A stretch of 42,378 nt of DNA from Escherichia phage LF82-23: sequence record PV660458; one strand, 5' to 3'. A program made the position numbers and the translations under genes. The notes beneath the pieces are model-generated. The model was not told where the DNA came from. It saw only the letters and a program-made list of their open reading frames with translations, and did not search any database. Positions 307 through 26,306 of the stretch are shown here, piece by piece. Numbering within the stretch: the stretch's first letter is position 1; each line of letters opens with the position of its first letter.

Positions 307-2066
307 TGGATTTACAACGCCGCATGGTGATGGCAGGAATCGTTCGCGCCCACTACGAGAACAACTTCCCGCTGTTCCTGCATGACTACTTCGCATGGCT
401 GGGCTTTGACCTCACTGAAATGCAGCTCGACATTGGCCGCTACATGGCCGACCGGACGCTCAAGAACAAGTGCGTCATGGCTCAGCGCGGTGAGGCAAAG
501 TCCACCATCGGTATTGCTCGCGCCCTGTACGAGTTCGTTCAGATGCCGAACGCCACTGTGTTGTTGGTATCTGGTTCGGACGACTATGCGGGTACGCTGT
601 CGCACGCCATCGTGTCTGCCATTATGCAATGGGAGCGTCTGGAATGGCTGCGCCCTGAGACTCGCGCTGGCGCACGTACGTCCTATACGGACGGCTTCGA
701 CGTGCATCACGCATTCCGTATCCCTGACAAACAGCCCTCTGTAAAAGCGGTCGGTATCTTCGGCCAGTTGCAGGGGAACCACGTATCGCTGTTGATTGCC
801 GATGACGTGGAGACTACCAGTAACGGTAGCTCTCCTGCCAACCGCGCCCGTATCAACACCCTGACCAAAGAGTTTGCGGCTATCGCCAACGATGGTGCAG
901 AGATTCTGTACCTCGGCACACCGCAGACGCAGGACTCCATCTACAACACGCTCCCGCAGCGTGGCTTCGACGTTCGCATCTGGCCCGGTCGTTTCCCAAC
1001 GGTTGAGGAAGAAGAACGCTACGGCGGCTGTCTGGCCCCGTGGATTAAGCAGAAGATGGAGGGCCACCCGGAACTTCGCACAGGCTACGGTATCCTTGGG
1101 AACCGTGGTGCGCAGACCGACCCGCAACGCTACTCCGAAGAAAAGCAGTTGCAGAACGAGCGAGACTACCAGCAGGCAGGCTTCCAGTTGCAGTTCATGC
1201 TGGATACGTCGCTGTCGGATGCGCTCAAACAAACGTTACATCTCAAAGACTTAATCTTCTTCCACGGCTCAACGCAGTCTGCGCCGGAGGTTCTGCATTG
1301 GTCGAACCACCCGCGCCATGCCGCCGAGCTGCCACTGGATTTCCCACTGGCTCGCGCTCAGCTATTCTTGGCTGCTGATTTCTCGGACACTTATGTACCA
1401 TTCGAAAATACCTCGGCGTTTCTTGACCCTGCTGGTGGTGGGTCGGACGAATCAGTTATCATCGCCACCGCTTCTGTCGGCCCGTTTATCCACGTCATTG
1501 GTATGCACGTCTACCACGGCGGCCAGACGGAGGAAAACATCAAGGCGGCGGTAGAGTGGCTCGCTGAAACCGGGGTCAAACGGCTGGTCATTGAGGATAA
1601 CATGGGCCACGGCACCGTGACCAACATGTACCGAGGTGAGATTAAGCGCCAGAGCTTGACCATTGGCTGTGAGGGCGTGTACTCGTCTGGCCAGAAAGAG
1701 GTGCGTATCATCAACCGCCTTGGCCCAATCATGCAGCGCCACCGTGTCGTCGTGCATTGGTGCGTTGTTGAAGAAGACCTGCGGCTGTGTCGCGGGATGA
1801 ACAACGGTGGTCGAGAGTTCAGCCTGTTCTGGCAGCTCCAGAACCTGACACAAGACCGTCAATCCATCCCACACGATGACCGTATCGAAACCCTATCTGC
1901 TGCCGTGTACCTGCACGCTGAGGTGCTACAGCAGGACGAACATGAAGAAGCTGCCAAGCGCGAGACGGCTGCCGCACGAGAGTTCCTTGCCAACCCAATG
2001 GGTTACGATGACTCGAAGTGGCGTAGCCATAAGCCTGTGCGTGGCGTGCGACGGAGACTACGTTAA
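306..2066 (+). CDS. terminase large subunit (DNA maturase B)
   Basis: 586-aa ORF, translationally coupled to the upstream small ORF; size and position typical of T7-group large terminase; N-terminal region resembles T7 gp19-family proteins as I recall them (not searched). Confidence 0.8.
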   Translation: MDLQRRMVMAGIVRAHYENNFPLFLHDYFAWLGFDLTEMQLDIGRYMADRTLKNKCVMAQRGEAKSTIGIARALYEFVQMPNATVLLVSGSDDYAGTLSHAIVSAIMQWERLEWLRPETRAGARTSYTDGFDVHHAFRIPDKQPSVKAVGIFGQLQGNHVSLLIADDVETTSNGSSPANRARINTLTKEFAAIANDGAEILYLGTPQTQDSIYNTLPQRGFDVRIWPGRFPTVEEEERYGGCLAPWIKQKMEGHPELRTGYGILGNRGAQTDPQRYSEEKQLQNERDYQQAGFQLQFMLDTSLSDALKQTLHLKDLIFFHGSTQSAPEVLHWSNHPRHAAELPLDFPLARAQLFLAADFSDTYVPFENTSAFLDPAGGGSDESVIIATASVGPFIHVIGMHVYHGGQTEENIKAAVEWLAETGVKRLVIEDNMGHGTVTNMYRGEIKRQSLTIGCEGVYSSGQKEVRIINRLGPIMQRHRVVVHWCVVEEDLRLCRGMNNGGREFSLFWQLQNLTQDRQSIPHDDRIETLSAAVYLHAEVLQQDEHEEAAKRETAAAREFLANPMGYDDSKWRSHKPVRGVRRRLR

Positions 2067-2734
2067 TGTCCTTGATTACCATTACTGACCAACAGCGGTA
2101 CGATATCGGCTACCGCGCCAACATCGCTGCGAACCTTACGCAGCGTTTCGTGAACAACACTACTCAGATTACGGCAGCTCAGGCTGCTGACATTGATACG
2201 GCCATACAGCAGCTCATGACGGCGCTGGAAGCCGCAGGCTATAGTTCCGTACCAGAAGGCTCTGTTATCGTCGCAGGCGGCGATACAGCGACCGTGGTGA
2301 ACCAAGACGGCACTGTGTCCAAGACTGGTACGGTTGAGGTGGACGGTGACACTTATCAGATTCGATTCCCGGTCACTACGGGTATGAAGTCCAACGGTGA
2401 TTCCATCTCTGTGCAGAACGTGAACGGTGCTGCTGGCATCACCTCTACTGCATTCGTCAACACCAATGGCGTGCTGCTGGCAGCCCGGCTCCCCTCGACG
2501 GTAGCCTGCATCTCCAGCGGTAACGGTATCCAGATTCGCAACTCTGCGGGTACGGCTATCGCTAACGCCACTTTCACGGTTTCCAACGGTGTTATTGCGT
2601 ATGGCACCTTCCCGGCAACCATCGCTGCGGTAGCCAACGCCGCTGCCCTGCAAATCCCGGTAACTGGCACCTACGTGGATACTGTTACCTTCACTGTCGC
2701 TGGTGGCGTAATCACTGGCATCACACTCTCTTAA
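2066..2734 (+). CDS. hypothetical Gly/Thr/Val/Ala-rich beta-type protein, possibly virion- or tail-associated
   Basis: 222-aa ORF coupled to terminase stop (TAATG); low-complexity T/G/V/A/N-rich composition reminiscent of fibre/beta-sheet proteins; no catalytic motif recognised. Confidence 0.45.
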   Translation: MSLITITDQQRYDIGYRANIAANLTQRFVNNTTQITAAQAADIDTAIQQLMTALEAAGYSSVPEGSVIVAGGDTATVVNQDGTVSKTGTVEVDGDTYQIRFPVTTGMKSNGDSISVQNVNGAAGITSTAFVNTNGVLLAARLPSTVACISSGNGIQIRNSAGTAIANATFTVSNGVIAYGTFPATIAAVANAAALQIPVTGTYVDTVTFTVAGGVITGITLS

Positions 2735-2745
2735 GGAGAATCTTT

Positions 2746-2940
2746 ATGGCACTTGTTGATTCTACCGCTGCTGAACGTGCGGAGTTCGTGGCAGCCTGTA
2801 ATATGGCGGCCAAGTATCTGAACGTTTGGACGGAAGACTACTTCTTCGATACCACCAACACTGAGCTGGTTGCGTATTATCAGACCTTTGTGACCCGTGT
2901 ACAAACGGCGCTCACTAACCTGACGAACGCCGCAGCGTAA
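2746..2940 (+). CDS. hypothetical protein (64 aa)
   Basis: ORF with GGAG 7 nt upstream of ATG; no transmembrane segment; function unknown. Confidence 0.45.
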   Translation: MALVDSTAAERAEFVAACNMAAKYLNVWTEDYFFDTTNTELVAYYQTFVTRVQTALTNLTNAAA

Positions 2941-2950
2941 GGGGTATCTC

Positions 2951-3439
2951 ATGAAACTGTCTCGGCTAATGGCCGGGGCAGTCCTATCAGCGTCGCTGAC
3001 TCTGACGGGCTGCTCCGCAACTAGCGCACTGTCTGCTGTAACTTCGGCTGTATCTCCCAACAAGCCGGAACTGACGGCTCAGGTAGGTGCAGAAAACACG
3101 AAGCAAGGTATCGGTGTGACTGCGAAACAGTCCGATGAAACCGAAGTCGGTGATGTATCAGGCAACGCGAAAGTGGATACCGCTAAGCAGGGTTCGAATG
3201 GCACTTCCGTCAAGGACGTCTCAGGAGGCTCTGTAAACGCTTCTAAGCAGGGGTCACAAATGACCCAAGGAAACGTACAGGCTAAAACAGTTGTCATCTC
3301 TCAGAGCGACCCACGCAGTCTCCTGTGGGCATTTGGCATGGGCCTTACGTGCATCCTTGGTCTGGTCATGTGGTTTGTACCATCTCCGTGGAAAAGGAAA
3401 GTGAAAGATGACGGAAGCAAAGAAGGAGCCAACTCCTAA
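2951..3439 (+). CDS. lipoprotein with C-terminal transmembrane helix; unimolecular spanin (u-spanin) candidate
   Basis: N-terminal signal peptide ending in lipobox LTGC (Cys21), low-complexity periplasmic middle, C-terminal hydrophobic helix LLWAFGMGLTCILGLVMWFV; lies directly upstream of holin candidate and endolysin. Architecture matches the T1 gp11-type u-spanin. Confidence 0.55.
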   Translation: MKLSRLMAGAVLSASLTLTGCSATSALSAVTSAVSPNKPELTAQVGAENTKQGIGVTAKQSDETEVGDVSGNAKVDTAKQGSNGTSVKDVSGGSVNASKQGSQMTQGNVQAKTVVISQSDPRSLLWAFGMGLTCILGLVMWFVPSPWKRKVKDDGSKEGANS

Positions 3440-3791
3440 CATCCACTCGCGTATGGGTGCAGTGGAGGCTCGTATGCAATCCGTAGAACTTCGACTCGAC
3501 AAGCACGAGGTACAAATCGCGACCCTCGAAAAGGGTGATGCTGCAATGCTGGCCAAGTTAGCGGAGAACGATACCCGCTGGCAGACGGTTCAACAGCAGC
3601 TCCTTGTGGTTGAGCAAATTCAGGACATTCAGAAGACTATGAGCCACATCGGTAAGTTGTTCACGGCGGCGGCTCACGCTGTCAAATGGTGTCTCTTAAC
3701 TGCATCCCTGTGTAGCGGTATCTACTTAGCAATCAAGGCTGGTGACTTAAGCTCACTGCAAGCCTTCATCACTACACTACTGGGGATGTAA
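3408..3791 (+). CDS. membrane protein, holin candidate
   Basis: 127-aa ORF; predicted coiled-coil N-terminal region then hydrophobic C-terminal segment (AAAHAVKWCLLTASLCSGIYLAI); stop overlaps endolysin start (TAATG). Endolysin lacks a signal/SAR sequence, so a holin is expected here. Confidence 0.4.
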   Translation: MTEAKKEPTPNIHSRMGAVEARMQSVELRLDKHEVQIATLEKGDAAMLAKLAENDTRWQTVQQQLLVVEQIQDIQKTMSHIGKLFTAAAHAVKWCLLTASLCSGIYLAIKAGDLSSLQAFITTLLGM

Positions 3792-4327
3792 TGACTAACT
3801 TTGAAATCTGTATGCGGTTCACCGGGCTGGCAGAAGGTGGTTACACCAAGCTGCCCGGCGATACCGGAGGGGAAACGAATCATGGAATTAGCGACGCTCG
3901 TGATGGCAAACTGGATGGCCGAGCTTGTGGTGTCCCTACTGGGCTTGGCGGCACTATTTGTGTACCTATCAAGCAGCTCACCAAAGCACAAGCCGAAGCA
4001 ATCTATCGACGGGATTACTACACCCCCATCCGAGGTGACGAACTTCACCCTGCGATTGCATGTGCCGTGTTTGACTACGGTGTCAACTCCGGTGTCTCCC
4101 GTGCGGCGAAAGCTCTACAGCGGGTATGCGGCGTTGCACAAGACGGGATTGTTGGCCCTGCTACCGTGGCAGCAGCCAAACGTCTGGAACCTCACTCCGC
4201 AGCAGCAGCCATCTGTGACCTTCGTATTGCGTTCCTAAAGGCTTCTACAGCCCCGACAGTGGTTCGCTATAGGGATGCCTTGGTTGCTCGTGCAAAACGC
4301 TGTAGCGCTTACTGTGCGACGCTGTAG
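3791..4327 (+). CDS. endolysin, glycoside hydrolase family 108-like N-terminal domain plus C-terminal peptidoglycan-binding-like domain
   Basis: N-terminal motif FTGLAEGGYTKLPGDTGGETNHGI matches the GH108 EGGY...D.GG.T..GI signature; C-terminal region resembles PG_binding_3-type domains; last gene before the non-coding terminus. Confidence 0.8.
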   Translation: MTNFEICMRFTGLAEGGYTKLPGDTGGETNHGISDARDGKLDGRACGVPTGLGGTICVPIKQLTKAQAEAIYRRDYYTPIRGDELHPAIACAVFDYGVNSGVSRAAKALQRVCGVAQDGIVGPATVAAAKRLEPHSAAAAICDLRIAFLKASTAPTVVRYRDALVARAKRCSAYCATL

Positions 4328-4544
4328 GGGTATCCGAAAGCTGATGCAATGAACAGGCCGTGGGTGCAATACCCCGGCTTGAAAATTGACTATTTGTACG
4401 TGCCCCTCCCTCGACCCAAATGACCGCGCGTGCCCCCATAGCGTGTGCGCGGTTTAGCCTCGCGACGTGCGCGATAATTGCTCGCGTGCGCTGCGCGGCG
4501 CGTCGAAAGGATTGCCTGCGTGCGGTATAGCTCGTGCGTGTCGC

Positions 4545-4900
4545 GTTTCATCGTCTGCCGTGTGGCGTGCTGTGCGCTGTCCTGCTGGCTGTGCTGTGCG
4601 GTGCTGTCCTATGGGGACGCTCTGCGCTGGCTGGCTGGTGCTGTGGTAGCGGTGCGGTCGGTCGGGTATCTGTCTCTTTTCGTGGCGCGGCGTGGTGCTG
4701 TGTGGTGGCGGTGGTGCTGCGTGGTGCTGTCCTGTCTGCTGGTCTACTGTCTGCGCCTGCCAGCTCTGCGCGTCGTGCTCTGCTACCTGCTGTTACTGTC
4801 CTACTGCCTTCACTGTCTGCCGTCTGTCAGTCCTACGGTCTGCCATCCGTCATCCGTTCGGCGCTCGCTTGTTTCGGCTGCGCCGCGCTCGCTCTGCGTA
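4545..4900. other. A-depleted, GT- then CT-rich low-complexity non-coding block
   Basis: Roughly 5% A on the + strand by eye over about 350 nt (e.g. 4681-4740 contains no A); degenerate short repeats (GCTGTG, GGTGCTG, CTGTC); ORFs here exist only because stop codons need A. Confidence 0.7.
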
Positions 4901-5060
4901 TCTAGCGATACTATATCACTATAGACACTTTCATAATTATCTATTGATATCAGTAACTTATAACCTATCTGATAACGGTATTCTGACCAGTGTTATGATT
5001 ATCTAATCAAACTTTAATCCTAATGATTACAGTAACTTATCACTTTTCTTGAAAATAATA
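4901..5060. repeat. AT-rich block with clustered short GATA/TATC-type palindromes (candidate terminus/ori/packaging region)
   Basis: TTGATATCA, TATCTGATA, TGATTATCTAATCA, CAGTAACTTAT x2 seen directly; lies between the A-depleted block and the early promoters. Confidence 0.5.
4919..4934 (-). promoter_or_regulatory. inverted copy of conserved 16-mer ATGAAAGTGTCTATAG (candidate phage RNAP promoter element)
   Basis: Reverse complement of 4919-4934 is identical to 25618-25633; extended match about 27 nt with one mismatch. Confidence 0.35.
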
Positions 5061-5061
5061 C

Positions 5062-5091
5062 TTGCAAACTGTTTTGGTTTTGTGCTGTAAT
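5062..5091 (+). promoter_or_regulatory. sigma70-type early promoter P1
   Basis: TTGCAA (5062-5067), 18-nt spacer, TGTAAT (5086-5091) preceded by TGn extended -10. Confidence 0.6.
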
Positions 5092-5165
5092 TCATCACGT
5101 CGAAAGGCACTAGCCCAGTAGACAAGATTGAACGGTAACACTGCTCTTTAACAATCTGGAGTGTA

Positions 5166-5194
5166 TTGACAAGGCAAGCTCACTATGCTGTAAT
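5166..5194 (+). promoter_or_regulatory. sigma70-type early promoter P2
   Basis: TTGACA (5166-5171), 17-nt spacer, TGTAAT (5189-5194) with TGc extended -10. Confidence 0.7.
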
Positions 5195-5302
5195 GCTTCC
5201 ACGTCAGCCAGCAAGCTAAACAGTCATTGATAAAGACGTTAAAACACACGCAGGCAAACTGGTACGGGTTATTCATCTCAGAACGGGCGCTGAATAAAAC
5301 GG

Positions 5303-5331
5303 TTGACAGGATGAAACGAGTATGCTGTAAT
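5303..5331 (+). promoter_or_regulatory. sigma70-type early promoter P3
   Basis: TTGACA (5303-5308), 17-nt spacer, TGTAAT (5326-5331) with TGc extended -10. Confidence 0.7.
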
Positions 5332-5382
5332 ACGCTCCAGATTGACAGGGCAGCAAGCCAGTCAGTCAGAAGTAAAAAGTAG

Positions 5383-5411
5383 TTGACACGCTGAATACGA
5401 TGTGATGTAAT
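5383..5411 (+). promoter_or_regulatory. sigma70-type early promoter P4
   Basis: TTGACA (5383-5388), 17-nt spacer, TGTAAT (5406-5411) with TGa extended -10. Confidence 0.7.
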
Positions 5412-5843
5412 CAGCACCGAGTTGAAAGGTTGCAAAACAACCTGCTCTGAGTGAACGTAAACAGGCCACGTAGTGTCTCGGCCTCATGGGTATCCGGCGC
5501 AGCTAGGAACTGGTGAGGGCACCGCCGAAAGGCAATAGGGGTAGCGCCCGGTGCGATGGGAACGGAGAAGCGCGATAGACGCAGCGCAGTATCAGCACAA
5601 TCCCGAACGTCTTATAAGGCGCGGAGTGAAGCGGGTAGGTAGGCAAGCTGGTAACGGTGAGCCGGACTGCTGGAGGACTCCTGAGAGTGGATGCAGACAA
5701 TATCCACGGCGCGAAATGGGCGGGGCGATTTTTCAGGGTAGTGAATCCGACAAGCCAATCAATGCCAACGAGTGCAGACTGTACGGCGCGTCACAATGGG
5801 TTCACTATCCACCTGAAAATAGCCAACAACTGGAGAAATTAAT

Positions 5844-6233
5844 ATGTACCGTATCTATGCAAGCGCATATCGTCAGGGCAACGCTGAGTCAGTCAATCTG
5901 GCGCTTCATTGCAAGGCACTGCGAACGGTGCAGGACATGTTCGGAGTGGTTCCGGTCACACTGACAGGCAAGTTCGACAATGCGTATGAGTTAAGCATGG
6001 TCTTCCCTGTCGATGGAATCTACGAAATCCGACAGGCTGTTAAGCTGTTTTGTAAAGCCTTCGAACAGGACTGCATCATGGTAGTGACCAAAGACGACGA
6101 TGCAATCTTCATGGACTCACCGTATCCGGGTAAGCCTGCTGGCAAGCTGGTCAGCAAGACTAACGAGGAAATGGAAGCCGGGCAGCATACCGCTTGGACT
6201 TACGATGGTGAGCAATTTTGGGTAGTGGAGTAA
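5844..6233 (+). CDS. hypothetical early protein (129 aa)
   Basis: First ORF after promoter array and leader; GGAG 9 nt upstream of ATG. Confidence 0.6.
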   Translation: MYRIYASAYRQGNAESVNLALHCKALRTVQDMFGVVPVTLTGKFDNAYELSMVFPVDGIYEIRQAVKLFCKAFEQDCIMVVTKDDDAIFMDSPYPGKPAGKLVSKTNEEMEAGQHTAWTYDGEQFWVVE

Positions 6234-6244
6234 GGAGCATGACT

Positions 6245-6316
6245 ATGTTCACTGCACTGTGTGTTATTGCGGCGGCGTGTTGGGTTATTGACCAGCGCCT
6301 GCCTAAGCGAGCCTGA
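6245..6316 (+). CDS. tiny hydrophobic peptide (23 aa), candidate small membrane protein
   Basis: AAGGAG (6232-6237) 7 nt upstream of ATG 6245; peptide MFTALCVIAAACWVIDQRLPKRA; below the 60-aa floor of the ORF track. Confidence 0.3.
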   Translation: MFTALCVIAAACWVIDQRLPKRA

Positions 6317-6317
6317 T

Positions 6318-6401
6318 ATGTGGGACTTACTGGTAGCGTTATTCTGGTTCGTCTTTGCAGGCTTGTGGATTTACTGGCTGACTCGTCCCAAATTATGGTG
6401 A
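6318..6401 (+). CDS. tiny hydrophobic peptide (27 aa), candidate single-pass membrane protein
   Basis: ATG 1 nt after the stop of the preceding tiny ORF (possible coupling); peptide MWDLLVALFWFVFAGLWIYWLTRPKLW has an 18-residue hydrophobic core. Confidence 0.3.
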   Translation: MWDLLVALFWFVFAGLWIYWLTRPKLW

Positions 6402-11363: not shown

Positions 11364-11567
11364 ATGTTCAGAGTTATATTGTTGTTCCTGTTCCTCGTAT
11401 TAATATGGGGTGCTATCTGGTGCGTGCTGGCAATGACTGTGCTGGTGCCTGCCATCGGTGAATCAGCAACGGGTGGGCTGGGTACAATACTCGGTATGCT
11501 GGTGGGCTGGGGCTTAATGTCGTTCAGCCTTGACGTAGGCCAGAGCCGGAGGTGGATTAAATGGTAA
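11364..11567 (+). CDS. small membrane protein (67 aa, two hydrophobic helices)
   Basis: GAGGATGA upstream of ATG; sequence dominated by two hydrophobic stretches. Confidence 0.55.
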   Translation: MFRVILLFLFLVLIWGAIWCVLAMTVLVPAIGESATGGLGTILGMLVGWGLMSFSLDVGQSRRWIKW

Positions 11568-12001
11568 AGCCAAAGTATAAAGTCGGGGATGAAATCGTAG
11601 GCGACGATGGCACTGGCACCCGGTCGGGTAAGCTGGGCATCATTGCGTGGGTTAACCCTGACCGCCGAGCGTGGGAGCGTAGCGGGGAGACTCGTTACAT
11701 CGTGAGCTGGATTGGTGAGCGCCTGAATGCGCAGCCGGATATCAGCCACTACAAATCTGATTGGCTGGAGGACAACACCAGTCTGGTCAGTACCCCGGCG
11801 CAGCAGCGCGGTCGGTTCATGTGCGTGGTCGAAGGTGGCAGCACGCCGCCGAAGGTTGAGCACATCACTGAACGTGAAGCGCGTGAAGAAGCTGAGCGAC
11901 TGGCCGAGCGCCACGGCGGTACTGTCCGTGTGCTGCAAGTTATTGCCAGCGTGAAGATGAAGAAGAAGATTCAGTACATACCGGACTGGGATAACGAATG
12001 A
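11561..12001 (+). CDS. hypothetical protein (146 aa), N-terminal KOW/SH3-like motif
   Basis: N-terminus YKVGDEIVGDDGTG resembles that of the ORF at 14362 (LKVGDRVINIDTRS). Confidence 0.5.
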   Translation: MVKPKYKVGDEIVGDDGTGTRSGKLGIIAWVNPDRRAWERSGETRYIVSWIGERLNAQPDISHYKSDWLEDNTSLVSTPAQQRGRFMCVVEGGSTPPKVEHITEREAREEAERLAERHGGTVRVLQVIASVKMKKKIQYIPDWDNE

Positions 12002-12708
12002 TGAAATCAGTGAGCAACGACGAGTGGCCGGAGCTGGCGAAGCGTCTGCCAGTAGGACAAAAGCGAAGGACGTTTCACAGTTGCTCCCGGTCATTCAGCA
12101 AGACCAACTTCGAGTACGGTCGTGCGCCGGATTACATCTGGTGCAAGTGCCACCGCTGTGGGTATAGCCGCAAGCATGACTTAACTCATGCAGTGTACGT
12201 GCCGCCAGCGGAGGTGCAAGTGAAGGTGCCAACTGATGTGGTGCCTATCACTGAGGTGATTGCCAAGCAGCCACGCTTGCTGCTGCCAGTGCTGGAGCGG
12301 GAGAACCTGATGCCGCACCTGTCTATCCTGACTGCAAGCCCAACGTATGGCAGGCTGTATCTGCCGGACGACACGGGCAGCTACTGCGGTCTGGATTATA
12401 CCGGGCGACAGTTCATCCCGTGGCGCTCGCCGCACAAGCATAGCTTGGCAATGAAGGTCAGCCCTCGTGGTAATGCTGAGACCAACTGCCTCTGGATTTA
12501 TGGTGAGGTGGGCGAGTATCTCCAGCAGGTACGCGACGGCGGCAACTGCGCGTTCGTTCCAAACGTGGACGACTCAACGTTGCAGGCGCTGGTCAGTGTG
12601 ACGCTGGCGTATGGATACAACCTCGTGGTTATCTGTCACCACCCAAGTGCTCAACGTATCCGCAGGGAACTGCGCGTGGTAGGGCGAGTGCAGATAGTAG
12701 GAGAATGA
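11998..12708 (+). CDS. zinc-ribbon protein, possible DNA primase domain
   Basis: Cys/His cluster HSCSRS...CKCHRCGY near N-terminus; position immediately upstream of helicase (primase position in T7-group genomes); TOPRIM motifs not confidently seen. Confidence 0.35.
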   Translation: MMKSVSNDEWPELAKRLPVGQKRRTFHSCSRSFSKTNFEYGRAPDYIWCKCHRCGYSRKHDLTHAVYVPPAEVQVKVPTDVVPITEVIAKQPRLLLPVLERENLMPHLSILTASPTYGRLYLPDDTGSYCGLDYTGRQFIPWRSPHKHSLAMKVSPRGNAETNCLWIYGEVGEYLQQVRDGGNCAFVPNVDDSTLQALVSVTLAYGYNLVVICHHPSAQRIRRELRVVGRVQIVGE

Positions 12709-13107
12709 ATGACACCTTGCATTGAGCACGGGCAGAAGGGTGATAAGTCTGGCTACGGTATGGCTAAGTATCGCGGCCAGTTCATGCGACTGCACCGCGC
12801 AGTATACTGCGAGCACAACGACACTGACCCGGCCAGCATCAAGGGCAAGGTGGTCATGCACCGTTGTGATAATCCACGCTGCATTAATCCAGAGCACCTG
12901 CTGCTGGGTACACATGCCGACAACATGCTGGACATGAGCCTCAAAGGTAGGCAGCCAAAGCCCAAGCTCACACCTGAGCTGGTGGCGCAGGCCGCTGAGC
13001 TGGAGTCGGCTGGCGTATCACAGCGTGAGATTAGCGAACGCCTCGGCGTGGCGCAGTCCACAATCAGTAGGGCATTGAGAAAGAGGACGTGGAAGCATGT
13101 TGGATAA
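12709..13107 (+). CDS. HNH endonuclease with C-terminal helix-turn-helix
   Basis: Motif HRCDNPRCINPEHLLLGTHADN (HNH) and C-terminal SQREISERLGVAQSTISRALRKR (HTH). Confidence 0.7.
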   Translation: MTPCIEHGQKGDKSGYGMAKYRGQFMRLHRAVYCEHNDTDPASIKGKVVMHRCDNPRCINPEHLLLGTHADNMLDMSLKGRQPKPKLTPELVAQAAELESAGVSQREISERLGVAQSTISRALRKRTWKHVG

Positions 13108-25699: not shown

Positions 25700-25885
25700 A
25701 TGGGTAGAGAATCTCCACTTGAAAGAGTTCAGTTCACTAAAGCTCAGTTAGCTCTACTGGAAAAGCACTTCGGTACATGGTCTCAGGTAGGTAAGACTGT
25801 CACCCCCGACACTAACCTACCTCTGATTAACAGAGAAGCTGGTAAGCAAGACGTTCTGGATTTCATCAGAGAAAGAGTGATTTGA
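25700..25885 (+). CDS. hypothetical protein (61 aa)
   Basis: GAGAGGA 6 nt upstream of ATG. Confidence 0.5.
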   Translation: MGRESPLERVQFTKAQLALLEKHFGTWSQVGKTVTPDTNLPLINREAGKQDVLDFIRERVI

Positions 25886-25886
25886 A

Positions 25887-26306
25887 ATGAAAGTGTCTAC
25901 TATGGGAAATACATCACACACGACGATGCCACTCGACATTCGCCGTGCTGTGGCCGAAGGCATTCAAGCTGAGCGGCCATGGTCAGACCTATCTCCCGAT
26001 GTGATTGTTGACAGCATGTACGAGGCCACCGCCTCCGGTTGTGTTGACGTTTACATCACTGACGATGACGGCAGCCTCATGGCTGTTGCTCACATCGGCA
26101 GGTTATTCGATATTCATGTGGGTGAGATGGTGGTCGTTATGGCCTCATACGTCTGGCCCCAGTACAGAAACCGTGGAGTGATGCGTGCCATCCTCCGTGT
26201 ACTCAAAGACGTGGCCCGTTCTGCGGGTGTACGTTGGTGCGGTTACTCCCATATGGTGCGGCCTTACGTTCAGGAGTACCGCTTCATTGATTTGGAGAAA
26301 CCGTAA
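25887..26306 (+). CDS. hypothetical protein (139 aa); weak acyltransferase-like resemblance
   Basis: Start overlaps third copy of the conserved motif (ATGAAAGTGTCTACTA); segment YRNRGVMRAILRVL only loosely GNAT-like; start uncertain. Confidence 0.4.
   Translation: MKVSTMGNTSHTTMPLDIRRAVAEGIQAERPWSDLSPDVIVDSMYEATASGCVDVYITDDDGSLMAVAHIGRLFDIHVGEMVVVMASYVWPQYRNRGVMRAILRVLKDVARSAGVRWCGYSHMVRPYVQEYRFIDLEKP

What the first reader, a model, noticed from the sequence alone, without database searches (positions are those of the whole stretch)
2951..4327. Lysis cassette with a unimolecular-spanin-like lipoprotein and an atypical holin candidate
Instead of the Rz/Rz1 pair of T7/phiKMV, the cassette has a single protein with both an N-terminal lipobox (LTGC) and a C-terminal transmembrane helix, which could span both membranes as described for the T1 gp11 u-spanin. 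The adjacent holin candidate has an unusual layout (long soluble coiled-coil N-terminus, C-terminal hydrophobic segment). The endolysin is a GH108-type enzyme without secretion signal.
Basis: partly seen in the sequence, partly recalled or inferred. Interest (0 to 1): 0.55.

Follow-up and report, generated by a model that had tools for sequence, protein, structure and literature searches.

The report
Phage lysis cassette with unrecognised holin candidate
This is the three-gene cell-bursting cassette of a Bonnellvirus-type coliphage: its single-protein spanin and GH108 endolysin are already known, and the helical, membrane-anchored protein between them is probably an unrecognised type of holin.

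Summary
Window 2951-4327 holds three translationally coupled + strand genes.

- **Spanin (162 aa).** It has a lipobox (LTGC) and a C-terminal transmembrane helix. It is a clear homolog of the T1 gp11 unimolecular spanin. The lipobox Cys is kept in 120 of 120 homologs. No Rz/Rz1 pair exists anywhere in the window. This part is already known: the ortholog in phage J8-65 (94% identical) is listed in the T1 u-spanin family by Kongari et al. 2018.
- **Endolysin (178 aa).** It is a soluble GH108 enzyme with no signal or SAR segment.
- **Middle protein (127 aa).** Every public record calls it hypothetical. It is predicted as one long helix: an eight-heptad coiled coil running into a weakly hydrophobic 16-residue segment, followed by an invariant Gly-Asp. 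Its family is small. In 10 of 10 lineages with readable context it sits directly upstream of a soluble endolysin, of two unrelated families (GH108 or GH24), with or without a spanin. In sister phages a pinholin fills the same slot.

I read the middle protein as the holin, at about 0.55. The function is inferred, not shown. Each complete genome also carries a private small membrane protein that cannot be excluded as the holin. Overall this is an ordinary cassette with one interesting uncharacterised component.

The parts
2951..3439 (+). u-spanin gene (162 aa), T1 gp11 family
   Evidence: phrog_1804 'Rz-like spanin', E 2.8e-36. tblastn hits T1 gp11 and the Drulisvirus and Corkvirinae u-spanins. 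BLASTP against T1 gp11: E 2e-16, 34% identity. 94% identical to J8-65 gp45.
2951..3013 (+). Lipoprotein signal peptide ending in the lipobox L18-T-G-C21. Ser at +2 predicts sorting to the outer membrane.
   Evidence: L18, G20 and C21 are invariant in alignment A1. The Cys is present in 120 of 120 homologs, and the +2 residue is S, A or G, never D.
3074..3106 (+). Family signature TAQVGAENTKQ (aa 42-52) of the periplasmic domain
   Evidence: Invariant across window, J8-65, LIMEzero, Dickeya, Pectobacterium and Klebsiella phages and T1. The AQ[VI]G motif is present in 119 of 120 homologs.
3152..3280 (+). Two copies of a roughly 21-aa periplasmic repeat (DVSG...KQG). This is the extra length relative to T1 gp11.
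   Evidence: DVSG at aa 68 and 89; KQG at aa 51, 79 and 99. LIMEzero has one more copy; T1 and KP34-like proteins have fewer (alignment A1).
3320..3379 (+). C-terminal transmembrane helix of the u-spanin (aa 124-143), followed by a Lys/Arg-rich cytoplasmic tail
   Evidence: KD17 2.11, Hessa sum -1.2. AF2 helix 121-142. TMD present in 118 of 120 homologs; the other 2 are truncated fragments.
3408..3791 (+). 127-aa candidate holin (phrog_35530, unknown function). The start overlaps the u-spanin by 32 nt; the stop overlaps the endolysin start.
   Evidence: 'Hypothetical protein' in all 21 phage records. The N-terminal 22 aa are conserved, and distant homologs start at the equivalent position. It lies directly upstream of an endolysin in 10 of 10 lineages.
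3441..3662 (+). Predicted cytoplasmic coiled-coil domain (aa 12-85)
   Evidence: AF2 single helix, pLDDT above 90 over aa 21-90. One heptad register with a/d positions 67% apolar and periodicity peaks at 3.5 and 7 residues.
3687..3746 (+). Weakly hydrophobic putative TMD W94-I109, bracketed by K93 and K110, then the invariant G112-D113
   Evidence: KD17 1.57 and Hessa sum 3.0, comparable to lambda S105 by the same crude measure. Distant homologs score KD 1.8-2.5. K/R residues lie on the N-side flank and an acidic residue on the C-side. G and D are invariant in A3.
3791..4327 (+). Soluble GH108 endolysin (178 aa) with a PG_binding_3-like C-terminal half
   Evidence: PF05838 E 9.7e-22, 77.7 bits against a cut-off of 21.2. 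PF09374 scores 24.2 bits against 24.6. phrog_315 endolysin, E 2e-40. PDB 7dnp and 2ikb homologs. No TMD or SAR segment.

Best explanation
Window 2951-4327 is the complete late lysis cassette of a Bonnellvirus-like podophage (Autographiviridae). It lies at the right end of the genome, just before the terminal repeat, in the gene order u-spanin, holin candidate, endolysin. The proposed mechanism has three steps.

(1) The 127-aa protein accumulates in the inner membrane as a tail-anchored protein, N-terminus in and C-terminus out. Its roughly 80-residue cytoplasmic coiled coil drives oligomerisation. At a critical concentration its weakly hydrophobic, small-residue-rich helix forms holes large enough for the folded endolysin to pass. 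This step is inferred.

(2) The cytoplasmic 19-kDa GH108 muramidase passes through and degrades the peptidoglycan. The enzyme family is shown by homology; its dependence on a holin is inferred from the lack of any export signal.

(3) The u-spanin already links both membranes, lipid-anchored in the outer membrane through Cys21 and anchored in the inner membrane by its C-terminal helix. Once the wall is gone it is freed to disrupt the outer membrane, probably by fusing the two membranes. Homology to T1 gp11 is shown; the function is inferred from T1.

Compared with sister phages that carry u-spanin, pinholin and SAR endolysin, the pinholin/SAR-endolysin pair has been replaced as a unit by this protein plus a soluble endolysin.
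For: u-spanin: direct homology to T1 gp11. Lipobox Cys in 120 of 120 homologs, C-terminal TMD in 118 of 120, no periplasmic Cys, and a +2 residue that is never Asp. The J8-65 and LIMEzero orthologs are already filed in the T1 u-spanin family (PMC6139136). It is the only credible lipoprotein ORF in the window, and there is no i-spanin.

Endolysin: GH108 above the Pfam threshold, with no hydrophobic N-terminus.

Holin candidate:
- It occupies the exact slot held by the pinholin in Stompvirus, Kotilavirus and Drulisvirus cassettes.
- The family is small: a profile search of 1.84 billion representatives found only about 9 true relatives.
- In all 10 lineages with readable context, the family gene ends between -1 and +30 nt from the start of an endolysin gene. 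That endolysin is GH108 in the window clade and L026, and signal-less GH24 in L009-L028.
- The link is to the endolysin, not to the spanin. A u-spanin is adjacent only in the window clade, L009, L011 and L026.
- The architecture is conserved down to about 20% identity.
- The TMD is more hydrophobic in distant members, and the flanking charges follow the positive-inside rule.
- It is the only membrane-type protein besides the u-spanin that the window and LIMEzero share.
- Genes are translationally coupled.
- The Kc261 bonnellvirus paper reports only an endolysin and no holin (PMC8402661).
Against: No experiment exists for any member of the 127-aa family. Its hydrophobic stretch in the window protein is short (16 residues) and marginal: KD19 below 1.6, and one family member, P0045, scores only KD17 1.26. 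It lacks the charged C-terminal tail typical of holins. It matches no curated holin family in Pfam, PHROGs or NCBIfam.

The window has another small membrane protein, 67 aa with two TMDs and a basic C-terminus (11364-11567). LIMEzero has a different one, ORF35. Either could be the true holin. Most family contexts are short metagenomic contigs, so a holin elsewhere in those genomes cannot be excluded.

The beta-rich periplasmic fold reported for u-spanins could not be confirmed, because the AF2 model had pLDDT 51.
Confidence: 0.6

Rival explanations
1. The 127-aa protein is an accessory or regulator of lysis: an XhlA-like holin partner, an antiholin or a lysis timer. It needs a separate true holin encoded elsewhere, for example the 67-aa two-TMD protein at 11364-11567 in this phage.
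For: Its architecture (N-terminal coiled coil plus C-terminal TMD) is that of XhlA. XhlA is a holin-like protein of Gram-positive cassettes that always accompanies a second holin (PMC10630273). XhlA is the most frequent weak Pfam hit: 8 of 13 family members, best E 5e-4. The window encodes a 67-aa protein with two strong TMDs and a basic C-terminus, which is a classic class II holin layout. LIMEzero has a 53-aa TMD protein, ORF35, at the start of the late region.
Against: The 67-aa protein sits in the early DNA-replication region next to the primase gene. It evolves fast: 76% identity in phages whose 127-aa protein is 96% identical. It is absent from LIMEzero, Lidtsur and forsur, which keep the same cassette. 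LIMEzero ORF35 is absent from the window. So no alternative holin is shared by the genomes that share the cassette. No second TMD protein lies next to the endolysin in any of the 10 lineages. The XhlA hits fall in the coiled-coil region, and generic coiled-coil proteins match that model promiscuously.
Confidence: 0.25
2. The 127-aa protein is not an integral membrane protein. It would be a soluble coiled-coil factor that binds or regulates the endolysin, for example a chaperone or inhibitor. The C-terminal hydrophobic helix would then serve oligomerisation or peripheral membrane binding, and the endolysin would cross the membrane by another route.
For: The hydrophobic stretch is marginal: no 19-residue window reaches KD 1.6 in the window protein, P0045 scores KD17 1.26, and Hessa sums are positive. 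AF2 shows it as a continuation of the long helix. Conserved adjacency and translational coupling to the endolysin would equally fit a binding partner.
Against: Most distant members have clearly hydrophobic 16-17-residue segments (KD 1.8-2.5) bracketed by Lys/Arg, with positive charge on the N-side flank and an invariant Gly-Asp on the C-side. That is the pattern of a membrane boundary. A bona fide holin, lambda S105, scores no better on the same crude scales. The partner endolysins belong to two unrelated folds, which argues against a specific binding partner. A soluble endolysin still needs a hole, and no other conserved candidate exists.
Confidence: 0.1
3. The 127-aa protein is an inner-membrane partner of the u-spanin, an inverted i-spanin-like coiled-coil subunit, and not part of the holin-endolysin step.
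For: Its gene overlaps the 3' end of the u-spanin gene by 32 nt, as also seen in L009 and L011. Its composition, a coiled coil plus one TMD, recalls i-spanins.
Against: Six of the 10 lineages have the family gene and an endolysin with no adjacent u-spanin or any lipoprotein ORF. There is no signal peptide, and the charge distribution puts the coiled coil in the cytoplasm. T1 gp11 works alone (PMC6139136).
Confidence: 0.03

Closest known systems
Phage T1 gp11 unimolecular spanin family (Kongari et al. 2018, SpaninDB), including J8-65 gp45 and LIMEzero gp53
   Same: N-terminal outer-membrane lipoprotein signal, the TAQVGAENTKQ motif, a Cys-free periplasmic domain, a C-terminal TMD and a place in the lysis cassette. 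The window protein is 94% identical to J8-65 gp45 and 34% identical to T1 gp11.
   Different: It is about 30 aa longer than T1 gp11 because of an extra 21-aa periplasmic repeat. It is paired with a soluble endolysin rather than with a pinholin and SAR endolysin, a difference already noted for J8-65 and LIMEzero in PMC6139136.
u-spanin, pinholin and SAR-endolysin cassettes of Drulisvirus (KP34-like), Stompvirus and Kotilavirus
   Same: The same gene order downstream of the large terminase gene, with two small genes, then u-spanin, holin slot and endolysin, and a homologous u-spanin.
   Different: There the holin slot holds an 83-89-aa pinholin, and the endolysin has an N-terminal SAR segment. 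Here it holds a 127-aa coiled-coil protein, and the endolysin is a soluble GH108.
XhlA (PF10779), holin-like protein of B. subtilis PBSX and many Gram-positive phage cassettes
   Same: A small protein with an N-terminal coiled coil and a single C-terminal TMD, encoded just upstream of the lysis genes. It is reported as essential for PBSX lysis (PMC6834076, PMC10630273).
   Different: Sequence similarity is sub-threshold (14 bits against a cut-off of 34.7) and confined to the coiled coil. XhlA always accompanies a second holin, and none is adjacent here. The host type also differs, Gram-positive against enterobacteria.
Single-TMD holins (class III, T4 gpT; T7 gp17.5)
   Same: One TMD, N-in topology predicted, and control of the release of a soluble endolysin (the comparison with T4 and T7 rests on my own knowledge).
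   Different: T4 T carries its large domain in the periplasm, C-terminal to the TMD. T7 gp17.5 is 67 aa with no large domain. Here the large domain is an N-terminal cytoplasmic coiled coil and only about 17 residues follow the TMD. No sequence similarity was detected.

Membership tests
T1 gp11 u-spanin family | N-terminal lipoprotein signal with a lipobox and an invariant Cys | tested here: met
   LTGC, with Cys21. Invariant in A1. The Cys is present in 120 of 120 homologs.
T1 gp11 u-spanin family | Outer-membrane sorting (no Asp at +2 after the Cys) | tested here: met
   Ser22 in the window protein. The +2 residue is S, A or G in all 118 homologs scored.
T1 gp11 u-spanin family | C-terminal transmembrane domain | tested here: met
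   Residues 124-143, KD 2.1. AF2 helix 121-142. Present in 118 of 120 homologs.
T1 gp11 u-spanin family | Sequence similarity of the periplasmic domain to family members | tested here: met
   BLASTP against T1 gp11: E 2e-16. 94% identity to J8-65 gp45, a listed member. phrog_1804, E 2.8e-36.
T1 gp11 u-spanin family | No periplasmic cysteine | tested here: met
   Zero periplasmic Cys in 118 of 118 homologs scored and in the window protein.
T1 gp11 u-spanin family | Periplasmic domain with a short helix followed by beta strands | tested here: inconclusive
   AF2 with a 36-sequence alignment gave pLDDT 51. It modelled only a short helix at 23-30 and left the rest as coil.
T1 gp11 u-spanin family | Complements the lambda Rz/Rz1 lysis defect | not testable with these tools
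   Shown only for T1 gp11 (PMC6139136).
Two-component spanin (Rz/Rz1 type) | An i-spanin (N-terminal TMD plus periplasmic coiled coil) with an embedded, overlapping or separate o-spanin lipoprotein gene | tested here: not met
   A six-frame lipobox scan finds only the u-spanin as a credible lipoprotein. The embedded ORF at 12722-12937 lies inside an HNH endonuclease gene. No protein with an N-terminal TMD reaches i-spanin size.
GH108 endolysin | Match to the Glyco_hydro_108 catalytic domain above the curated threshold | tested here: met
   PF05838, 77.7 bits against a cut-off of 21.2. Homologs in the PDB: 7dnp, 2ikb, 2nr7.
GH108 endolysin | Canonical cytoplasmic enzyme with no signal peptide or SAR segment | tested here: met
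   No hydrophobic segment; best KD17 is 1.21 and it is internal. Sister-phage SAR endolysins show the contrasting pattern.
Holin (functional class) | Small phage protein with at least one TMD | tested here: inconclusive
   A 16-residue stretch, KD17 1.57, marginal in the window protein and clearer (KD 1.8-2.5) in most distant homologs. No dedicated TM predictor was available.
Holin (functional class) | Encoded next to the endolysin in the lysis cassette | tested here: met
   10 of 10 lineages, with two unrelated endolysin families.
Holin (functional class) | Highly charged hydrophilic C-terminal tail | tested here: not met
   The C-terminus is AGDLSSLQAFITTLLGM, with no basic tail.
Holin (functional class) | Membership of a curated holin family (Pfam, PHROGs, NCBIfam) | tested here: not met
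   The only significant match is phrog_35530, of unknown function. One member matches a holin PHROG at only E 0.005.
Holin (functional class) | Forms lethal membrane lesions that release the endolysin | not testable with these tools
   Needs expression and complementation experiments.
XhlA (PF10779) | HMM score above the gathering threshold | tested here: not met
   14.3 bits against 34.7. The best family member reaches E 5.4e-4. The hits are in the coiled coil, which generic coiled-coil proteins also match.
XhlA (PF10779) | Co-occurs with a second, canonical holin gene in the cassette | tested here: not met
   No second TMD protein lies adjacent in the window or in any related locus.

The most novel reading that the evidence does not exclude
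phrog_35530 (the 127-aa protein and its roughly 15 known lineages in T7-like phages) is a previously unrecognised holin class. It would be a tail-anchored protein with one weakly hydrophobic TMD and an 80-residue cytoplasmic coiled coil. It would gate release of soluble GH108 or GH24 endolysins on its own, and it would be the Gram-negative counterpart of the poorly understood XhlA-type proteins.
Probability: 0.45. Interest if true: 0.55.

Novelty: new variant of a known kind. Interest (0 to 1): 0.35.

Why it matters
The u-spanin and the endolysin add nothing new. They are close orthologs of proteins already catalogued.

The value lies in the middle gene. Bonnellviruses and LIMEzero currently have no annotated holin (PMC8402661 reports only an endolysin), even though their endolysin has no export signal. 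The context evidence gathered here points to one small, unannotated family as the missing holin.

If confirmed, it would add a new topology to the holin repertoire: a large cytoplasmic coiled coil on a C-terminal anchor. It would correct the annotation of all 21 phage records that carry the gene, including the N-terminally truncated gene models in J8-65 and LIMEzero. It would also give a simple E. coli system for asking how coiled-coil, tail-anchored lysis proteins such as XhlA work. The practical relevance is modest, limited to lysis timing in candidate therapeutic coliphages.

Tried and rejected
- **Fold search.** The 127-aa model was compared with BFVD (collected). No match reached E 0.001. 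A single long helix is uninformative, so the other libraries were not tried.
- **PDB profile search with A2**. It returned only coiled-coil noise, E at least 0.09.
- **XhlA lead.** Weak Pfam and PHROG 'hemolysin' hits recur in the family. The coiled-coil repeat proteins that the same profile picks up match XhlA, DUF7310, FlaC, tropomyosin and dozens of others. I therefore rejected this as evidence of homology and kept it only as an architectural analogy.
- **The search for related loci with A3** failed, because the alignment has no stretch conserved enough to search with.
- **tblastn of the distant member P0039** found no isolated phage.
- **The LIMEzero paper (PMC3126476)** is not held, so I could not check what its authors said about gp54.
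- **Dual-start idea.** M1, M16 and M23 are conserved in the clade, and a GGAGG precedes M23. The GGAGG is made from the codons around the invariant Glu20, and distant homologs have no Met at that position. The idea is dropped. M1 is taken as the start.
- **AF2 of the u-spanin** gave a low-confidence model, so it offers no test of the beta-rich domain.
- **Promoter and terminator scan of 1900-6000** found nothing above the shuffled expectation.
- **Embedded lipobox ORF at 12722-12937** was rejected as an o-spanin. It has a TTG start and lies inside an HNH endonuclease gene.
Full report
**What the window is.** The 42,378-base window is a complete, circularly permuted genome of a Bonnellvirus-like podophage (Autographiviridae). 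Region 2000-5000 is 90% identical at the DNA level to Escherichia phages aldrigsur and altidsur, and 81% identical to J8-65. All genes lie on the + strand. The region after the large terminase gene (306-2066) holds a 222-aa and a 64-aa protein without membrane segments, then the three genes of the finding. The stretch that follows the endolysin gene in J8-65, which includes its annotated terminal repeat, aligns to window 4373-4643. The cassette is therefore the last transcription unit at the right end of the linear genome.

**Checking the observation.** They overlap by 32 nt and by 1 nt (TAATG). Every described feature is present.
- The 162-aa protein has a lipobox LTGC (Cys21) and a strong C-terminal TMD at residues 124-143.
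- The 127-aa protein has a long helical N-terminal part and a C-terminal hydrophobic stretch.
- The 178-aa protein has a GH108 domain and no hydrophobic N-terminus.

**The u-spanin.**
- *Direct homology.* The 162-aa protein matches phrog_1804 at E 2.8e-36. By tblastn it hits more than 600 phage records, including the experimentally characterised T1 gp11. The pairwise BLASTP to T1 gp11 gives E 2e-16 and 34% identity over the whole length.
- *Conserved features.* I aligned the window protein with those of J8-65, HHU8, LIMEzero, Dickeya BF25/12, Pectobacterium PPWS2, a KP34-like Klebsiella phage and T1. The lipobox L-x-G-C, the motif TAQVGAENTKQ and the C-terminal TMD are conserved in all.
- *Wider sample.* Among 120 homologs from a search of 5.8 billion proteins, the Cys is present in all 120. 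Of these, 118 have a canonical lipobox and two have the variants LMGC and LQGC. The C-terminal TMD is present in 118; the other two are truncated fragments. The residue after the Cys is never Asp, and no periplasmic Cys occurs.
- *No Rz/Rz1 elsewhere.* A six-frame scan for lipoprotein signals across the window finds no other credible candidate, and no i-spanin-like protein exists.

The reading is correct but not new. Kongari et al. 2018 list J8-65 (163 aa) and LIMEzero (188 aa) in the T1 gp11 family. They remark that these two are unusually long. They also note that these are the only family members not paired with a pinholin and a SAR endolysin (PMC6139136). The window protein is 94% identical to the J8-65 protein. 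The extra length comes from roughly 21-aa periplasmic repeats (DVSG...KQG): two copies here and three in LIMEzero. An AlphaFold model was of low confidence (pLDDT 51). It cannot test the beta-rich periplasmic domain described for the family.

**The endolysin.** The 178-aa protein matches Glyco_hydro_108 at 77.7 bits against a cut-off of 21.2. It also matches PG_binding_3 just under threshold, at 24.2 bits against 24.6. It has solved-structure relatives. There is no signal or SAR segment. By contrast, the endolysins of sister cassettes and of T1 start with a Gly/Ala-rich hydrophobic segment. A soluble endolysin needs a hole-forming holin; this follows from established knowledge of phage lysis.

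**The 127-aa protein: anatomy.**
- *Annotation.* All 21 phage records that encode it (bonnellviruses and LIMEzero) call it hypothetical. Its only significant family match is phrog_35530, of unknown function.
- *Coiled coil.* AlphaFold predicts one helix from residue 12 to 110 and a short helix at 114-125, with pLDDT 84. Residues 12-82 keep a single heptad register. Core (a/d) positions are 67% apolar against 43% overall, and hydropathy periodicity peaks at 3.5 and 7 residues.
- *Hydrophobic segment.* The helix runs into a 16-residue segment, W94-I109, bracketed by K93 and K110 and followed by Gly-Asp. On crude scales this segment is marginal (KD17 1.57). It is no worse than the transmembrane helices of the bona fide holin lambda S105 measured the same way.
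- *Start codon.* The N-terminal 22 residues are conserved, and distant homologs begin at the equivalent place. M1 is therefore the start, and the 105- and 106-aa gene models in J8-65 and LIMEzero are truncated.

**The 127-aa protein: relatives and their neighbours.**
- *Family size.* A profile search of 1.84 billion representative proteins found only about nine true full-length relatives, at 21-31% identity. The remaining hits are generic coiled-coil repeat proteins. A second profile search added seven more.
- *Shared layout.* All relatives have an N-terminal motif like LYRRxGxLE, a coiled coil, a 16-17-residue hydrophobic segment between basic residues (KD 1.8-2.5 in most), an invariant Gly-Asp and a short C-terminal helix. 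Basic residues cluster on the N-side of the segment and an acidic residue on the C-side. That pattern predicts a topology of N-terminus in the cytoplasm and C-terminus outside.
- *Constant neighbour.* In every one of the 10 lineages whose context I could read, the gene ends between -1 and +30 nt from the start of an endolysin gene. All are contigs carrying a T7-type terminase.
- *Two endolysin families.* The endolysin is GH108 in the window clade and in L026. It is an unrelated GH24 (Phage_lysozyme) enzyme without any hydrophobic N-terminus in L009-L028.
- *Spanin is optional.* A T1-type u-spanin lies upstream only in the window clade, L009, L011 and L026. The other lineages have none nearby.

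The constant partner is therefore the soluble endolysin, not the spanin. In the sister groups Stompvirus, Kotilavirus and Drulisvirus, the same slot between a homologous u-spanin and the endolysin holds an 83-89-aa pinholin, and the endolysin carries a SAR segment. The pinholin/SAR-endolysin pair thus appears to have been swapped as a unit for this protein plus a soluble endolysin.

**Interpretation.** The best-supported reading is that the 127-aa protein is the holin of this cassette. It would be a tail-anchored, single-TMD protein whose cytoplasmic coiled coil drives oligomerisation. I put this at about 0.55.

What is shown:
- the conserved architecture;
- the membrane-boundary signature;
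- the invariable adjacency to soluble endolysins of two different folds;
- the positional equivalence to a pinholin;
- the absence of any other membrane protein shared by the window and LIMEzero.

What is inferred:
- membrane insertion;
- hole formation;
- the role of the coiled coil.

**Reasons for caution.**
- The window also encodes a 67-aa protein (11364-11567) with two strong TMDs and a basic C-terminus, a classic small-holin layout. It lies next to the primase gene in the replication region. It evolves much faster than the cassette and is missing from LIMEzero, Lidtsur and forsur.
- LIMEzero has its own private 53-aa TMD protein (ORF35), which the window lacks.
- Neither small protein can be excluded as the true holin.
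- If one of them is the holin, the 127-aa protein would be an accessory in the manner of XhlA of Gram-positive phages. XhlA has the same architecture and is required for PBSX lysis, but it always accompanies a second holin (PMC10630273, PMC6834076).
- The weak Pfam and PHROG similarity to XhlA is confined to the coiled coil and is not specific. It is an analogy, not demonstrated homology.

**Novelty and verdict.** The u-spanin and the endolysin are already known. The phage is a new species-level relative of known bonnellviruses. The middle gene is an unannotated, narrowly distributed family. No paper I could search assigns it a function, and the Kc261 bonnellvirus paper reports only an endolysin as the lysis system (PMC8402661). 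If it is a holin, it would be a new topological variant of a known kind of protein. Holins are notoriously diverse, so a specialist would be interested rather than astonished. Overall interest is 0.35.

Noticed in passing
window 11364-11567 (+): A 67-aa protein with two strongly hydrophobic TMDs and a basic C-terminus (MFRVILLFLFLVLIWGAIWC...SRRWIKW), just upstream of the primase gene. It has no PHROG match. It is only 45-76% identical in other bonnellviruses and absent from LIMEzero, Lidtsur and forsur. It has a small-holin layout but sits in the replication module. It could be a rival holin or a superinfection-exclusion or host-takeover protein.
   Followed up: partly
window 6218-6401 (+): Two overlapping tiny ORFs in the early region, 32 aa (TTG start) and 46 aa, each with one hydrophobic helix. 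Neither has a PHROG match. Whether either is real was not tested.
   Followed up: no
window 4328-5843: About 1.5 kb without a convincing gene, between the endolysin gene and the SAMase-like early gene (5844-6233; phrog_2226, annotated 'SAM-dependent methyltransferase', and called anti-restriction SAMase in mellemsur). The stretch after the endolysin gene in J8-65, which includes its terminal repeat, aligns to 4373-4643 at 75% identity. GT-rich simple repeats lie at 4583-4730. The physical genome ends probably lie here, so the window is a circular permutation of a linear genome.
   Followed up: partly
L001:2972-3289 (J8-65 gp46) and L004:2552-2872 (LIMEzero ORF54): The public gene models of the 127-aa protein's orthologs start at the internal Met equivalent to M23 (105 and 106 aa). 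Conservation of the upstream 22 residues, and the start position of distant homologs, indicate the longer ORF that overlaps the u-spanin gene. These models are probably mis-annotated starts.
   Followed up: yes
window 3152-3280; L004:1951-2517: The periplasmic domain of the u-spanin varies in length through copy number of a roughly 21-aa repeat (DVSGxxxVxxAKQG...). There are two copies in the window and in J8-65, three in LIMEzero, and fewer in T1 and KP34-like proteins. This suggests the periplasm-spanning length is tuned by repeat gain and loss.
   Followed up: partly
L021:10869-10994, L023:3611-3736, L010:1430-1558, L009:3235-3363: In the metagenomic relatives, and mostly in those without an adjacent u-spanin, a 41-42-aa highly basic peptide (for example MVKKEGSKWVVRSTTGKKLGEHPTKAKANAQLRAIEANKHK) lies next to the endolysin gene. 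Two of the four match phrog_3684, one matches phrog_2423 (both of unknown function), and one (L010) has no PHROG match. None has a homolog in the window. A possible role in outer-membrane disruption, like the cationic peptide gp28 of phiKT, is pure speculation.
   Followed up: partly
window 12709-13107 (+): An HNH homing-endonuclease gene (phrog_59, E 1e-33) sits between the primase gene (11998-12708) and the next replication gene. An out-of-frame lipobox-like ORF inside it (12722-12937) is a chance feature.
   Followed up: yes
L020:20583-20744 (LIMEzero ORF35): A 53-aa protein with a very hydrophobic C-terminal helix at the start of the late region of LIMEzero. It has no counterpart in the window, where the flanking genes (25700-25885 and 25887-26306) abut directly. 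It is another lineage-specific small membrane protein of unknown role.
   Followed up: partly
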